Positions 39,791-57,026 of a DNA stretch of 64,000 nucleotides are shown here, one piece after another. Position numbers and translations under genes: made by a program. Within the stretch, counting starts at the first letter, position 1. Every line of letters starts with the position of its first letter. Source of the stretch: Eledone cirrhosa. Its lineage: Eukaryota. The DNA is taken from the NCBI GenBank assembly GCA_964016885.1, contig OZ024760.1, forward strand, positions 9,796,001-9,860,000, written 5' to 3'. Under the pieces are notes generated by a model that was given only the letters and a program-made list of their open reading frames with translations, was not told the origin of the DNA and made no database searches.

Positions 39791-40100
39791 TATAAAGAAA
39801 AAAAGATAAAATCGTAAATGCAACTGGAGTCTTTTTTTTTTTTTTTTTTTTTAAATATATATATTTATTTGGTTCCTTTACCGGTTTCGCAGTTCTTCTG
39901 CTTTTCAAAAGTAGAGTTGAGATGGAGGGTCTGTGGTTTTTCTCACAGATATGAGAAAAACCACAGACCCTCCATCTCAACTCTACTTTTGAAAAGCAGA
40001 AGAACTGCGAAACCGGTAAAGGAACCAAATAAAAATATATATTTTTTTTTTTTAAATAAGACTCCAGTTGCATTTTCGATTTCATCTTTTTTTCTTTATA
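39791..40100. repeat. Long inverted repeat (about 155-bp arms, 6-nt loop) with hammerhead 3' half GAAACCGGTA in each arm
   Basis: Arms reverse-complementary around ctca-cagata-tgag. Confidence 0.9.
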
Positions 40101-40328
40101 TATATATATATATATATATATATTATATATATATTATATATATATTATATATGTACATTGTCCAATATATATATATATATTATATATGTACATTGTCCAA
40201 TATATATATATATATTCTAAAATGATTATCGTAGATTTTGCTTATCTCCCCTCCGACCACCATCAATATCATCATCTTGTATTGTTGCTAAGCAACTAAC
40301 TATTGTTTCCAATTTGTTCTTTCTACAG

Positions 40329-40395
40329 TTGAGAAGATGGTCAATGTTGGAAAACAGGTGTTGCAAGAGAAAGGTGGCAACGTGGATGATATAAG
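40329..40395 (+). CDS. HINT3: HINT3-like internal exon B ([V]EKMVNVGKQVLQEKGGNVDDI[R])
   Basis: ttcttctacag acceptor, gtgagt donor, 67 bp, phase 1 to 2, joins exons A and C in frame. Confidence 0.85.
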
Positions 40396-41985
40396 GTGAG
40401 TGCTGATTGGTCAGTTTATGGTGTTGTATATAAGGTGAGTGATGATTGGTCAGTTTGTGGTGTTGTATATAAGGTGAGTGATGATTGGTCAGTTTGTGGT
40501 GTTGTATATAAGGTGAGTGCTGATTGGTCAGTTTGTGGTGTTGTATATAAGGTGAGTGATGATTGGTCAGTTTGTGGTGTTGTATATAAGGTGAGTGATG
40601 ATTGGTCAGTTTGTGGTGTTGTATATAAGGTGAGTGATGATTGGTCAGTTTGTGGTGTTGTATATAAGGTGAGTGATGATTGGTCAGTTTGTGGTGTTGT
40701 ATATAAGGTGAGTGATGATTGGTCAGTTTGTGGTGTTGTATATAAGGTGAGTGATGATTGGTCAGTTTGTGGTGTTGTATATAAGGTGAGTGGTGATTGG
40801 TCAGTTTGTGGTGTTGTATATAAGGTGAGGGGTGATTGGTCAGTTTGTGGTGTTGTATATAAGGTGAGGGGTGATTGGTCAGTTTGTGGTATTATATATA
40901 AAGTGGGTGATGATTGGTCAGTTTGTGGTGTTGTATATAAGGTGAGGGGTGATTGGTCAGTTTGTGGTGTTGTATATAAGTTGAGGGGTGATTGGTCAGT
41001 TTGTGGTGTTGTATATAAGTTGAGGGGTGATTGGTCAGTTTGTGGTGTTGTATATAAGGTGAGGGGTGATTGGTCAGTTTGTGGTGTTGTATATAAGTTG
41101 AGGGGTGATTGGTCAGTTTGTGGTGTTGTATATAAGGTGAGGGGTGATTGGTCAGTTTGTGGTGTTGTATATAAGGTGAGTGCTGATTGGTCAGTTTATG
41201 GTGTTGTATATAAGGTGAGTGATGATTGGTCAGTTTGTGGTGTTGTATATAAGGTGAGGGATGATTGGTCAGTTTGTGGTGTTGTATATAAGGTGAGTGA
41301 TGATTGGTCAGTTTGTGGTGTTGTATATAAGGTGAGTGCTGATTGGTCAGTTTATGGTGTTGTATATAAGGTGAGTGATGATTGGTCAGTTTGTGGTGTT
41401 GTATATAAGGTGAGTGATGATTGGTCAGTTTGTGGTGTTGTATATAAGGTGAGTGATGATTGGTCAGTTTGTGGTGTTGTATATAAGGTGAGTGATGATT
41501 GGTCAGTTTGTGGTGTTGTATATAAGGTGAGTGATGATTGGTCAGTTTGTGGTGTTGTATATAAGGTGAGGGGTGATTGGTCAGTTTGTGGTGTTGTATA
41601 GAGTGAGTGATGATTGGTCAGTTTGTGGTGTTTATATAAGGTGAGTGATGATTGGTCAGTTTGTGGTGTTGTATATAAGGTGAGTGATGATTGGTCAGTT
41701 TGTGGTGGTGTATATAAGGTGAGTGTTGATTGGTCAGTTTGTGGAGTTGTATATAAGGTAAGTGATGATTGGTCAGTTTGTGGTGTTGTATATAAGGTGA
41801 GGGGTGATTGGTCAGTTTGTGGTGTTGTATATAAGGTGAGTGTTGATTGGTCAGTTTGTGGAGTTGTATATAAGGTAAGTGATGATTGGTCAGTTTGTGG
41901 TGTTGTATATAAGGTGAGGGGTGATTGGTCAGTTTGTGGTGTTGTATATAAGGTGAGGGGTGATTGGTCAGTTTGTGGTGTTGTA
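40391..41985. repeat. 39-bp minisatellite, about 41 copies, whose unit contains the exon B splice donor
   Basis: Unit ataag|gtgagtgatgattggtcagtttgtggtgttgtat. Confidence 0.95.
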
Positions 41986-42158
41986 CATAATTAGGTCCAC
42001 CTGGTATCTTACCACACCCTCTTTGTAATATATATATATATATATGAGTGTGTGCATATATATATATATATATACACACACATGCACACAGTTTTTTAAA
42101 ATGTAACCAAAACATTCTATGGATTAGTGTGTGTTTGGAAAACTTATTTATATCTTGG

Positions 42159-42202
42159 TTAATTCTGAGGACTCACAGGAGGATGAAACATATGTAAATT
42201 AA
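42159..42202 (+). ncRNA. Hammerhead-like motif with degenerate stem II
   Basis: UUAAUU-CUGAGGA...GAAAC-AUAU-GUA|AAUUAA. Confidence 0.5.
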
Positions 42203-42510
42203 ATTATGATATAAATAACAGTGTTTGGTAACACATTTTAATGTAAAACACACACACATATATATATATATATATATATGTATTTATATATATATATAGG
42301 AAAAAGTTTAAGAGTCCAGAAATAGCTGACGGGGTTAAACCTTTTCCTATTACCCACTCTACTACCCTAAGTATTGAGTACTCTGGTGCGTTATGGTCCA
42401 TCTGGTTCCTTACCACACCTCCTTCGTTATATATATATATATATAGTGTAGGTAGTATAGTGAAATACTGGTGTTGGTACCACATCAAGCACTCTATGCT
42501 CAGGCAGAGT

Positions 42511-43037
42511 GTATATAATAGAAAAAAATGAGTAAGTTCGTTTACATATGAGAAATATTTATTGCGTATCGACCTGTTACGTGTGTTTCACAGAGGATTG
42601 GCTCAAGGTGACTCATAGGGGTTATGGATCTGACTCCAGTATCGATGTGCTCCTCAGACTGGTGATGTGACAAAAGATATATTTTTGTTGTGGTATGTGG
42701 ACCGAGAAGGTATATATATATATATAGGCATTGGCCCTATTTTGTGTGTGTGTGGATGTGTGTGTGTATTTTGGTGTAAAATTGGGGGAGTGGCAATGCG
42801 GGTGTGTATTCACTGGTATTCATGTGCGTATTTATGTGAGTGCGTGAGCAATTAAGGATTCGTGTTTGTATGTGTGGGTGCATTTTGGAATGTGTAATGG
42901 TCAGATTGATACTGGAGTCAGGTCCATAACCCCTATGGGTCACCTTGAGCCAATCCTCTGTGAAACACACGTAACAAGTCGATACGCAATAAATATTTCT
43001 CATATGTAAACAAAACTTCCTCATTTTTTCTATTATA
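42511..43037. repeat. Inverted repeat (about 130-bp arms, about 265-bp spacer) with a minus-strand hammerhead-like motif at about 42571-42664
   Basis: Minus strand: accagu-CUGAGGA-GCA...UGU-GAAAC-ACAC-GUA|acaggu; the right arm lacks the CUGA core. Confidence 0.75.
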
Positions 43038-54814: not shown

Positions 54815-55819
54815 CTAGCAGAATGGCCCGGCGTTGCTCGGGATTTGCTCTAGGGTTCTTATATATTTGATATATATTTATCCTTATCGAGCCTCGTGAA
54901 ATAAATACGTTTGTTTATATTTTGTTATTGTGTCATGCAGTAATACAGAGTACCCGACCTCCCATGGGTACAAGCTGAAGCATATAGACAATATGCCCCC
55001 ACACCCTCCCACTGCAAGGTGGTCGTGGAGGTGCCACGGCAAAAAAGCACCCAGCCCACACTGTAAAGTGTACGTGTAGGTGCCACGGAAGATAAGCACC
55101 CAGGACTCACTGTAAATGAGGTTGGTGTTAGGAAGGGCATCCAGCTGTAGAAATCAAGTCAAATCAGTTCGTGTATGAGCAAGGCATGGTCAGCCGACCA
55201 GACACTGCCCACAACAGGACAACCCGTCTAACCCATGCTAGCGTGGAAGAACGGACGTAAAACGGTGATGATGATGATGATGATGTGTATGCAAAAATAT
55301 CTGTACACAATATATAATTATATATATATATATATATATATATATATTAAAATAACAGATTAAAGTTTAAGCAAAGAATCGATGTTTCACCCTTAATGGG
55401 ATCTTCTGAAACAAAAAAATAACAATCTGTGAACACAGAAGTAAATATTTCGAAAAACGTTACGCACACTATATATATATATATATACACACACTATATA
55501 TACATATACACACACACTATATATACATATACACACACACACACACACATGTAGCGTCATAATGTCGTAATGCAGACAGCCAGACATACACAGATATTAT
55601 AAGGGCGCAACGTTATATCTATGTATCTATCTAAAAAGAAAGACGAAGAATTATAGAGAGAGATCGCTAAATCGCCTAATGCGGTCCCTAGGGCATTGAA
55701 AATTTGAAATTTCTTTTGTTCAAAACACTCACACTACCATAAGTATTACATGTGTAAAGTTTGGAAAAAATCGGTTGGGTAGTTCTCGAGTTTTAGGGAG
55801 TCAGACTCCCTGTTTTAGA
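54815..55819 (-). mobile_element. Non-autonomous Helitron with a nested SINE (54930-55284); 5' boundary approximate
   Basis: a|ctagcagaatggcccggcgttgctcggg is the same 3' hairpin plus CTAG as at 38190. Confidence 0.65.
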
Positions 55820-55939
55820 TGATTAGCAATTGGAAAGACCACAGTAAGTGAAGTACTTAATACATTAGTAGAGTATATATAAAATTTAATATAGAAATGA
55901 AACAGCTCTAGGCCTGTAGAAGCCATTTCTATATTATAT

Positions 55940-56197
55940 TATGGTTGTGTAGGTGTCACGACAAAAAAGAACACACGGTCCACGCTGTAATGTGGTCGTG
56001 TAGGTAACATGGTAAAAAGCTCCCAGTCCACACTGTAAACGTGGTTGGTGGTTAGGAAGGGCATCCAGCCGTAGAAAACCTGCCAGATAGTCCTATACAA
56101 GTGAGACACGGTCACCCGACCAATCTTGCCTCAAGTGGGACAACTCCCGTCTAACCCATGCTAGCGTGGAAGATAGACGTTAAACGATGATGATGAT
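55940..56197 (+). mobile_element. SINE / RTE-tail repeat
   Basis: Homology to 43048-43670 and 35025-35312; (ATG)n tail. Confidence 0.8.
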
Positions 56198-56496
56198 ATT
56201 TATTATACACACATATATATATATATATATATAAAGGTCTGACGACATGGTGTGTTTGCTTACAGTGTACCTTCGGTTTATGATAATATTTTTATATTAT
56301 TCAAATAGCGAGGTATAGGTAACCCATACACTATAGAAACAATTGTTACCTAATAAATTCTTTATACCCGCATTTCCATTTCATAAACTTCTTCTCCATA
56401 TATATATATATATATATATATACGTAGGTCCCGGGTTGAGTCGGGGATAACCACAGTAAGTAGGGTACTCAGTACATGGCAGATTAAATTTTTTTT

Positions 56497-56618
56497 ATTT
56501 TATAGAAGGAGCTTCTACAGGACTAGTACTGTTTCATTCAGATGAAATCTTCAGGAAGCTCTGAAGATTTCATCTGAATGAAACAGTACTAGTCCTGTAG
56601 AAGCTCTTTCTATAAAAT
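56497..56618. repeat. Near-perfect hairpin whose arms carry CUGAAGA...GAAAC-AGUACUA-GUC
   Basis: About 58-bp arms, loop gaagct. Confidence 0.85.
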
Positions 56619-56844
56619 ATATATATATATATATATATATATAAATAAAGATTCAGCGAGAATCGCATTTCGGCGGGCAGGAAAAGCGAAGCGAAACGCA
56701 AAAATCATATATACGCACACACACACACACACACACACACATATATATATATATATATATATATATATATATATATTCTCTCTCTCCGTCTTTTTCCTTC
56801 TCCTTAACACAACGACTTACTAAGATAAACAAATCCACTATCCC

Positions 56845-57026
56845 CGATGTCTTCCAAAAGTAACGGTTGCATTTTGAAAGGGTATGTCAATATTTATTTA
56901 TAAAACTGGTATATATTGTATTTTGTCTGATGAAAGCATACCATAATTTAACATGGTATCCTTGAAATATGTATAATAAAATAGATATGGTTTTATATGG
57001 TTTTATAAATATAGTTTCCATTCGTA
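56845..57026 (+). mobile_element. Solo copy of the 49.3-kb hammerhead-bearing repeat
   Basis: Homologous to 49300-49486, including ctgatga...gaaatatgtata. Confidence 0.7.

What the first reader, a model, noticed from the sequence alone, without database searches (positions are those of the whole stretch)
39791..57026. Cluster of palindromic elements carrying hammerhead-ribozyme motifs, from several sequence families
Seen: long inverted repeats at 39791, 42511, 43833, 44078, 44507, 49158, 49747, 51020, 54706 and 56497. Most are unrelated in sequence, yet most contain CUGANGA and/or GAAA followed by a short palindrome and NUH (ACCGGU, ACAAUUGU, AUAUAUAU, AGUACU), reading outward from the centre. 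Most abut (TA)n. Established: Penelope-like elements carry minimal type I hammerheads with palindromic stem III in their pLTRs and often leave inverted, truncated pLTRs. Inference: these are non-autonomous Penelope-like or retrozyme-like foldback units; the inversion point repeatedly falls in or just upstream of the ribozyme, which may reflect the insertion mechanism. No Penelope ORF was found here.
Basis: partly seen in the sequence, partly recalled or inferred. Interest (0 to 1): 0.8.

Follow-up and report, generated by a model that had tools for sequence, protein, structure and literature searches.

The report
Head-to-head Penelope retroelement stumps with hammerheads
The ten mirror-image repeats are real and most carry a hammerhead-ribozyme motif; they are likely the chopped-off ends of Penelope-like jumping genes, a known kind of element, and the way their extra tail switches sides suggests the two halves are likely copied separately.

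Summary
All ten inverted repeats exist (arms 86-98% identical). Eight of ten carry the 3' hammerhead half reading outward (shuffles: mean 1.5, max 5). Five hold a full type I fold, two a degenerate one, two only the 3' half, and one nothing convincing. All ten abut (TA)n at one end, and six have a CTC..GAG stem-loop tail on one side only. These are the published marks of Penelope-like element (PLE) insertions. Hammerhead layout, tail and (TA)n target resemble the Hydra clade. No PLE reading frame was found, so membership rests on non-coding anatomy. They are not retrozymes: there are no tandem arrays, and the hairpin is predicted to bury the ribozyme core. The palindrome does not travel whole: two copies of one family share 10 private differences in both arms and no arm-specific ones. 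That family has thousands of read and contig matches and inverts at the 5' edge of the core. The tail sits on the 5'-shorter arm in 2 of 5 clear cases, which favours two separately primed cDNAs over one cDNA folding back. The scan's notes report like structures in other genomes. Known kind; modest mechanistic interest.

The parts
39791..40100 (.). IR1: arms 39791-39945 and 39952-40100, 6-nt loop. Hammerhead with U3-A8 core in both arms (+39989-40018; -39908). Junction 37 nt upstream of the core. (TA)n on the right, non-TA extension on the left
42488..43039 (.). IR2: arms 42512-42649 and 42902-43039, 252-nt spacer. Degenerate hammerhead on - strand (core 42657, cleavage triplet ending 42578, long loop II, helix I 5 of 6 pairs). 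Short arm starts 8 nt into the motif. Tail 42509-42488 on the 5'-longer arm. Possible 13-bp target duplication at 42472 and 43048
43833..44026 (.). IR3: 88-bp arms, 18-nt loop. 3' half only (GAAA, 8-nt palindrome, NUH at about 43953-43964); no intact core. (TA)n on the right
44078..44275 (.). IR4: 59-bp arms, same family as IR10. Hammerhead - 44138-44100 (one core mismatch). Left arm is 5'-longer, but the family tail (44206 to about 44275) is on the right arm
44501..44971 (.). IR5: arms of about 200 bp, perfect centre. Full type I hammerhead in both arms (+44823-44867; -44603-44559): helix I 5 bp, long helix II, palindromic helix III. Junction 120 nt upstream. Tail 44930-44971 on the right
49157..49513 (.). 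IR6: 114-bp arms, 104-nt spacer. Full hammerhead in both arms (+49387-49435; -49258-49210), helix I 8 bp. Short arm starts 12 nt upstream of the core. Tail 49492-49513 on the 5'-longer (right) arm
49715..50006 (.). IR7: 120-bp arms, 22-nt loop holding helix I 5' strand and an imperfect core on the + strand (49871; helix I 6 bp; cleavage triplet ending 49951; helix II base not formed). Tail 49740-49715 lies on the 5'-shorter (left) arm
51022..51164 (.). IR8: inverted repeat centred on (TA)n, right arm with an internal deletion; no convincing hammerhead. Membership uncertain
54575..54771 (-). IR9: 33-bp hairpin (54706-54771) closing on GAAA. On the - strand it continues by eye into a 4-bp helix III, GUC, and the family tail (54658-54633) down to (TA)n. 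No core
56430..56619 (.). IR10: 59-bp arms (98% identical), 6-nt loop = helix I 5' strand. Full hammerhead - 56554-56516 (helix I 7 bp, helix III 4 bp, weak helix II). Right arm starts exactly at C3. Tail of about 65 nt on the 5'-longer (left) arm
56821..57022 (+). Single-arm copy of the IR6 family (83% identity) with full hammerhead 56927-56975, ending at the short end in (TA)n
55840..55943 (.). Internally deleted palindromic copy of the IR4/IR10 family, tail on the left
34400..34521 (-). Single-arm copy of the IR4/IR10 family with tail; homology stops at the core (34520) and helix I 5' strand is absent
42155..42206 (+). Solo hammerhead (core 42165, helix I 6 bp, palindromic helix III, weak helix II)
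   Evidence: annotated by hand, not hit by the strict scan
48265..48339 (-). Solo hammerhead (core 48329, helix I 8 bp)
42299..42430 (.). Tiny insertion of the IR9 tail family: short inverted piece, tail, (TA)n on both sides; similar copy at 57043-57145
   Evidence: arm reading by eye
5003..5050 (+). Solo minimal hammerhead outside the cluster

Best explanation
These palindromes are likely the 5'-truncated, hammerhead-bearing 3' ends of about nine families of endonuclease-bearing Penelope-like retroelements (most like the Hydra clade), likely inserted at (TA)n as two separately primed cDNAs joined head-to-head. SHOWN by sequence and reads: head-to-head arms; type I hammerhead folds; two fixed 3' ends per family (a short end and a tail end 20-70 nt further on), each followed by (TA)n; never more than one tail per insertion; both arms of a copy sharing that copy's private variants; the tail on either the 5'-longer or the 5'-shorter arm. 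INFERRED: the element's RT-endonuclease nicks both strands of a (TA)n target; one 3' end primes at the distal start site (giving the tail arm) and the other at the proximal site (giving the short arm), probably on the same RNA; both cDNAs stop early, often at or inside the ribozyme, and are joined through short complementary stretches that the ribozyme helices can supply. The product is dead: read-through RNA is predicted to form one long hairpin that buries the catalytic core. My odds: PLE origin about 0.9; two-priming route rather than another route about 0.6; together 0.55.
For: Hammerhead statistics. Helix sequences differ between families while pairing holds; 57 of 57 cells pair in the IR6 family, with one G-C to A-U change. 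One-sided tail motif at 6 of 10 repeats against 0.7% of random 60-mers, with a homologous but degenerate tail at IR10. Reads for the IR10 family end at two sites: 872 loose ends at 56614 and 321+361 at 56429/56431, both running into TA-rich sequence. 10 copy-specific differences lie in both arms of IR4 versus IR10, and 0 arm-specific differences are shared (59 columns). Tail on the 5'-longer arm in IR2, IR6, IR10 and on the 5'-shorter arm in IR4, IR7. Literature: inverted 5'-truncated copy, 30-40 bp tail at one end and (TA)n bias (PMC8557442); dual minimal hammerheads 100-700 bp apart on opposite strands and the U3-A8 core (PMC4209133); a purified PLE protein cuts and extends both strands of AT-rich DNA and starts at two internal sites that bound the tail (PMC11167929). 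Hydra-clade hammerheads lie about 100 nt from the 3' end; several have helix III ACAG/CUGU and a U before helix II and before GAAA, as in IR4/IR10; three consensus tails carry CTC..GAG (File S2 and S7; compared by eye).
Against: No GIY-YIG or PLE RT frame in the window (motif scan of six frames; Pfam on 112 of 351 open frames), and no whole genome was available, so no family is tied to a coding element. Four short window motifs and one more were absent from the Craig 2021 supplement, so none is an already described consensus there; the Hydra likeness is by eye. The two-priming step rests on 2 of 5 cases, and only IR4's tail is proven to be its own family's tail. The covariation test is not significant (174 of 500 shuffles as high; 3 sequences). 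Arkhipova 2013 explains head-to-head palindromes by self-priming on an antisense template. The in vitro data come from a Poseidon-clade element and do not address inverted products in the parts I read. IR8 and IR9 do not fit cleanly.
Confidence: 0.55

Rival explanations
1. Same PLE origin, but one cDNA (or an antisense template) folds back on itself and primes the mirror arm.
For: Small loops and near-perfect centres in IR1, IR4, IR5 and IR10; hairpins closing on GAAA in IR3 and IR9, as expected if helix II primes the fold-back; contigs with a 2-nt insertion that makes the IR10 centre a perfect palindrome (2 contigs); self-priming proposed in PMC3846280. It also predicts mirrored private variants.
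Against: A copied arm cannot carry a tail that its template lacks, yet IR4 and IR7 have the tail on the 5'-shorter arm. Long spacers in IR2 (252 nt) and IR6 (104 nt) need long-range pairing.
Confidence: 0.3
2. Non-autonomous palindromic units that move whole as RNA (retrozyme-like), processed by their own hammerheads.
For: IR4 and IR10 share the junction register; several contigs span the centre with 0-5 gaps, one at depth 287 against 4-12 for the others listed; no common upstream sequence for that family (73 contig loose ends, agreement 0.42).
Against: Arms are rebuilt per copy (10 versus 0); centre sequences differ among copies; tail side flips between IR4 and IR10; predicted P(unpaired) of the core is <=0.002 in 4 of 4 whole elements folded; no tandem arrays, which define non-LTR retrozymes (PMC7229834; bioRxiv 10.64898/2026.07.22.740005).
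Confidence: 0.08
3. MITEs or other DNA-transposon foldback elements with TA target duplications, or Helitron-type elements with a 3' hairpin; the hammerhead motifs are passengers.
For: Long inverted repeats flanked by TA; tail forms a small stem-loop; a similar inverted repeat at 14705-14869 gave no hit in the strict hammerhead scan.
Against: Outer ends share no motif beyond A/T-rich sequence; a conserved tail lies outside the inverted repeat on one side only; single-arm copies exist; ribozymes always read outward; only 1 of 10 has a plausible non-TA target duplication.
Confidence: 0.04
4. Chance motifs in AT-rich DNA, or assembly or amplification artefacts.
For: Single half-motifs are not rare (per-repeat shuffle p 0.015-0.46).
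Against: Joint statistics; arms differ by 2-14%; family present in independent runs of three organism codes.
Confidence: 0.01

Closest known systems
Hydra-clade C-terminal EN+ Penelope-like elements (Craig et al. 2021, PMC8557442)
   Same: Canonical type I hammerhead about 100 nt from the 3' end; (TA)n target; internal TATA followed by a CTC..GAG tail; helix III ACAG/CUGU and U-flanked short helix II in some members; Penelope-13_HM has an inverted 5'-truncated copy with the hammerhead on both strands.
   Different: No coding region here; none of five short motifs tested matches the published consensi; several families have much longer helix or loop II; only 60-300 bp stumps are seen.
Inverted pLTR plus tail insertions of EN+ PLEs (Arkhipova et al. 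2013, PMC3846280; Craig 2021 fig. 2 legend)
   Same: Head-to-head arms, one arm shorter at its 5' end, palindrome at the junction, optional tail at one end.
   Different: Here no direct pLTR or ORF lies between the arms, tails run to about 65-70 nt, and target duplications are mostly hidden in (TA)n.
Minimal hammerheads of metazoan PLEs (Cervera and de la Pena 2014, PMC4209133)
   Same: Type I, palindromic helix III, long helix II, U3-A8 variant, opposite-strand pairs 100-700 bp apart.
   Different: The IR4/IR10 family has a 4-bp hairpin helix III with an 8-nt loop rather than a minimal one.
Non-LTR retrozymes (PMC7229834; bioRxiv 10.64898/2026.07.22.740005)
   Same: Small, non-coding, type I hammerhead, PLE-related.
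   Different: Retrozymes are head-to-tail tandem repeats; these are head-to-head and dispersed.

Membership tests
EN+ Penelope-like elements | ORF with telomerase-like RT and GIY-YIG endonuclease | tested here: inconclusive
   None in the window, as expected for 5'-truncated stumps; no genome to follow the families; two metagenome scans empty.
EN+ Penelope-like elements | Type I hammerhead near the 3' end | tested here: met
   Full fold in IR1, IR4 (one mismatch), IR5, IR6 and IR10; degenerate in IR2 and IR7; cleavage site 20-82 nt from the short end.
EN+ Penelope-like elements | Inverted 5'-truncated copy adjoining the 5' end (head-to-head) | tested here: met
   8 of 10 read outward, 1 inward; arm alignments.
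EN+ Penelope-like elements | Optional tail at one end only | tested here: met
   6 of 10 by motif, plus IR10 by homology, always one side; two read-end clusters.
EN+ Penelope-like elements | Direct pLTRs or partial tandems | tested here: not met
   No hammerhead lies in a tandem array. Not required for short inverted insertions.
Hydra clade | RWK and DKT motifs, CxCX5C linker, EN without CCHH | not testable with these tools
   No coding sequence available.
Hydra clade | (TA)n insertion preference | tested here: met
   10 of 10 against 15% background. Naiad shares this preference but lacks canonical hammerheads.
Hydra clade | Sequence likeness of hammerhead and tail to published consensi | tested here: inconclusive
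   By-eye resemblance only; exact short motifs absent; no alignment run.
Non-LTR retrozymes | Head-to-tail tandem units, each with a hammerhead | tested here: not met
Non-LTR retrozymes | Self-cleaved circular RNA | not testable with these tools
   No confirmed RNA run was listed.
MITE / DNA transposon | Superfamily-type terminal motif and fixed-length target duplication at both TIR ends | tested here: not met
   Ends share only A/T-rich sequence, the tail lies outside the repeat, and one possible 13-bp duplication was found in 10. A TA duplication cannot be excluded inside (TA)n.
Rfam hammerhead families | Covariance-model match | tested here: not met
   None among the listed matches (150 of 210; 58 of 58).

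The most novel reading that the evidence does not exclude
The IR4/IR10 family is a non-autonomous mini-retroelement of about 130-200 nt whose RNA begins at helix I of its hammerhead. A Hydra-type RT dimer copies that one RNA twice, from two start sites onto the two strands of a (TA)n cut, so each insertion is a freshly built palindrome centred on the ribozyme. This would explain PLE head-to-head structures and single tails by one rule and would tie the ribozyme's 5' edge to a discrete RNA end.
Probability: 0.25. Interest if true: 0.65.

Novelty: new member of a known kind. Interest (0 to 1): 0.38.

Why it matters
As elements these are ordinary PLE debris, though dense, from many families, and not recognised by Rfam. 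The value is mechanistic. Craig et al. 2021 name the formation of tandem and inverted PLE structures as unresolved, and the hammerhead's role is unclear. The tail-side rule is a simple, countable discriminator between fold-back and two-priming models, and an in vitro system exists (PMC11167929). Four of the palindromes lie between two apparent exons of a host gene, so they would put long double-stranded RNA into its pre-mRNA if it is transcribed (inference; expression not tested).

Tried and rejected
Unmasked repeat finder was swamped by simple repeats and was replaced by masked self-BLAST. Rfam named no hammerhead (60 low-scoring rows not shown). No whole genome is held, so consensus building and ORF linkage were impossible. 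Two metagenome pattern scans found 0 loci. Short window motifs were absent from the Craig 2021 supplement. Covariation on the IR6 family was not significant with 3 sequences. Target-duplication search gave one plausible case in 10; hits at IR1, IR5 and IR10 lie in flanking simple or tandem sequence or are 8-10 nt chance matches. My first by-eye reading of 2-nt-deleted cores inside the arms of IR2 and IR7 was dropped once better cores with helix I were found in their spacers. Earlier-finding look-ups by place and by sequence were empty. Paper searches for a printed two-priming account of PLE inversions found none (2 papers, seen as listings only; 8 listings). The library lacks most subscription papers, and Arkhipova 2006 and Evgen'ev and Arkhipova 2005 were not read. 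The organism was not determined.

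
Full report
SETTING. The window is AT-rich animal DNA full of microsatellites, minisatellites and dispersed repeats. No whole genome is held. I did not determine the organism; the repeat landscape reminds me of octopus genomes (recalled, untested). 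Two apparent exons of a HIT-motif gene lie at 40330-40396 and 45471-45598 (Pfam DcpS_C, E 2.6e-07; splice sites and frame), so IR2-IR5 would be intronic.

1. THE OBSERVATION. Masked self-BLAST gave 18 local inverted alignments, covering all 10 listed repeats. Arm alignments show 86-98% identity and spacers of 0-252 nt. A strict type I hammerhead descriptor gave 8 hits in the window. Seven lie in 39001-57500, against 0 in each of 40 dinucleotide shuffles; they are 5 loci: IR5 and IR6 (both arms), IR10, and solo copies at 48329 and 56927. One core mismatch adds IR4. The U3-A8 core reported for schistosome PLE hammerheads (PMC4209133) adds both arms of IR1. By hand, IR2 and IR7 hold a core and helix I in their spacers, with imperfect helix II. 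IR3 and IR9 have only the 3' half. IR8 has nothing convincing. The half-motif reads outward in 8 of 10 and inward in 1 of 10, while shuffles average 1.47 and never reach 8 in 1000. All 10 have (TA)n at an arm end, against 15% background. Rfam lists no hammerhead (150 of 210 rows seen; 58 of 58).

2. Beyond one arm, never both, runs a tail with a CTC..GAG stem-loop: 6 of 10 repeats by motif against 0.7% of random 60-mers, and IR10 by homology to IR4. IR4 and IR10 are one family, with two more copies in the window. IR6 has a single-arm relative at 83% identity that shares about 100 nt upstream of the ribozyme. In that family all 57 cells of the named structure pair, with one G-C to A-U change, but three sequences are too few for significance (174 of 500 shuffles as high).

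3. OTHER COPIES. I laid 4 of the 23 listed runs on IR10 and its tail at 80% likeness: 3211 contigs and 3791 raw reads of organism A, 24 contigs of B and 68 of C. So this is a high-copy family shared by related organisms. Listed variants (40 shown, 52 not shown) include the N of CUGANGA in both arms (397 of 425 and 385 of 390 first-mate-plus reads), loop II, loop III, and a helix I pair: 56605 changes in 565 of 612 reads and its partner 56560 in 45 of 60. Reads end at two places: the short end (872 loose ends at 56614) and the tail end (321 and 361 at 56429 and 56431), both into TA-rich DNA. Upstream of the core, 73 contigs agree for about four letters and then diverge (agreement 0.42). The 317 and 243 reads clipped at 56576 and 56577 have consensus lines that read as further inversions with other loop lengths (agreement 0.59 and 0.72), while 302 reads clipped at 56539 go on into something else. 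Limits: the raw run is RAD-seq and may over-weight a few loci, contig depth is not copy number, and a rare long parent would be hidden among 73 contigs.

4. WHAT IT IS. Each feature is published for endonuclease-bearing PLEs: an inverted 5'-truncated copy next to the 5' end, a 30-40 bp tail at one end, and microsatellite targets (PMC8557442); head-to-head arms with palindromic junctions (PMC3846280); opposite-strand hammerhead pairs 100-700 bp apart (PMC4209133); and insertion next to earlier copies (PMC6765202). The last may explain the clustering, together with (TA)n density (6.65 runs per kb here, 1.97 in 1-39000, but 5.54 in 57501-64000 with no hit). The best clade match is Hydra: canonical hammerheads about 100 nt from the end and (TA)n targets. 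By eye, helix III ACAG/CUGU and the U-flanked short helix II of IR4/IR10 recur in File S2. The tails of IR2 and of IR4/IR7 resemble those of Hydra-2_Ajap and Hydra-2_Amil in File S7. No PLE protein is encoded in the window (112 of 351 frames scanned by Pfam; the only RT found is a LINE-type one at 27345-28403), so clade membership is a likeness, not a test.

5. HOW IT LIKELY WORKS. Three shown facts constrain the mechanism. (a) Arms are rebuilt per copy: IR4 and IR10 differ at 10 of 59 columns in both arms at once and share no arm-specific difference. (b) There is never more than one tail. (c) The tail lies on the 5'-longer arm in IR2, IR6 and IR10 but on the 5'-shorter arm in IR4 and IR7; IR1, IR3, IR5, IR8 and IR9 cannot be scored. 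A single cDNA folding back fits (a) and (b) but not IR4 and IR7. A purified Anolis PLE protein cuts and extends both strands of AT-rich DNA, is predicted to be a dimer, and starts at two internal sites that bound the tail (PMC11167929). I infer that the two target strands prime at the two sites, probably on one RNA, and that the two short cDNAs are joined head-to-head. Junction offsets from C3 are 0, 0, -12, +8, +17, -37 and -120, with IR3 and IR9 closing in a presumed helix II. Ribozyme helices could supply the annealing, but the cleavage site is only 20-82 nt from the short end, so short stumps would end near it anyway. Only the IR4/IR10 family shows a sharp boundary. In 4 of 4 whole elements folded, the core is predicted paired (P unpaired <=0.002), so the palindromes are unlikely to self-cleave. 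None lies in a tandem array, which rules against retrozymes as defined in PMC7229834 and bioRxiv 10.64898/2026.07.22.740005.

6. NOVELTY. This is a new member of a known kind. My searches found no printed two-priming account of PLE inversions, but the library is incomplete. Earlier AI notes of this scan describe like structures in other genomes, including separately primed halves and a 5' boundary at helix I. They are unchecked leads.

PAPERS SEEN. PMC4209133: parts 1-2 of 4 of the text. PMC8557442: passages, section 11, and supplement parts 2, 52 and 53 plus searches. PMC11167929: parts 1-2 of 4. PMC3846280: passages and Discussion. bioRxiv 10.64898/2026.07.22.740005: part 1 of 5 (supplements not seen; they may list related families). 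PMC8969392, PMC7229834 and PMC6765202: passages. All others: search listings only.

VERDICT. The PLE reading is right, the retrozyme and moving-unit reading is wrong, and the ribozyme-centred junction is shown for one family only. Interest 0.38.

Noticed in passing
40330-40396 and 45471-45598 (+): Two in-frame exons of a HIT-motif gene (HLHLH; Pfam DcpS_C). The name HINT3-like is recalled, not tested. IR2-IR5 lie in the 5-kb intron between them.
   Followed up: partly
14705-14869: Inverted repeat (74-bp arms, 17-nt spacer) built from a dispersed repeat of about 200 bp with more than 10 copies in the window. It often ends in TATA and has no hit in the strict hammerhead scan; it may be a passenger of the same machinery.
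   Followed up: partly
42299-42430 and 57043-57145: Tiny insertions of the IR9 tail family (about 95% identical tails), each with a short inverted piece at one end and (TA)n at both. In the first, the tail again seems to sit on the 5'-shorter arm.
   Followed up: partly
54505-54600: A second tail, like IR7's, lies beyond the (TA)n that ends IR9's tail, which suggests nested insertion of one family into another's TA site.
   Followed up: no
48909-48973 (-) and 56305-56350 (+): Two more degenerate hammerhead-like stretches, seen by eye.
   Followed up: partly
27100-28900 (+); 36600-37600 (-): Decayed LINE with RVT_1 and an inserted PHD-finger-like stretch (Pfam). The second region looks by eye like a LINE 5' part.
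   Followed up: partly
38690-39660: Three tandem copies of a unit of about 300 bp ending in (TA)n, just left of IR1.
   Followed up: no
60750-61400 (+): Broken open frame that by eye resembles the start of a Helitron-type gene; no meaningful Pfam hit.
   Followed up: partly
45192-45325: Weak inverted repeat (75% over 59 bp) with no hammerhead motif seen.
   Followed up: no
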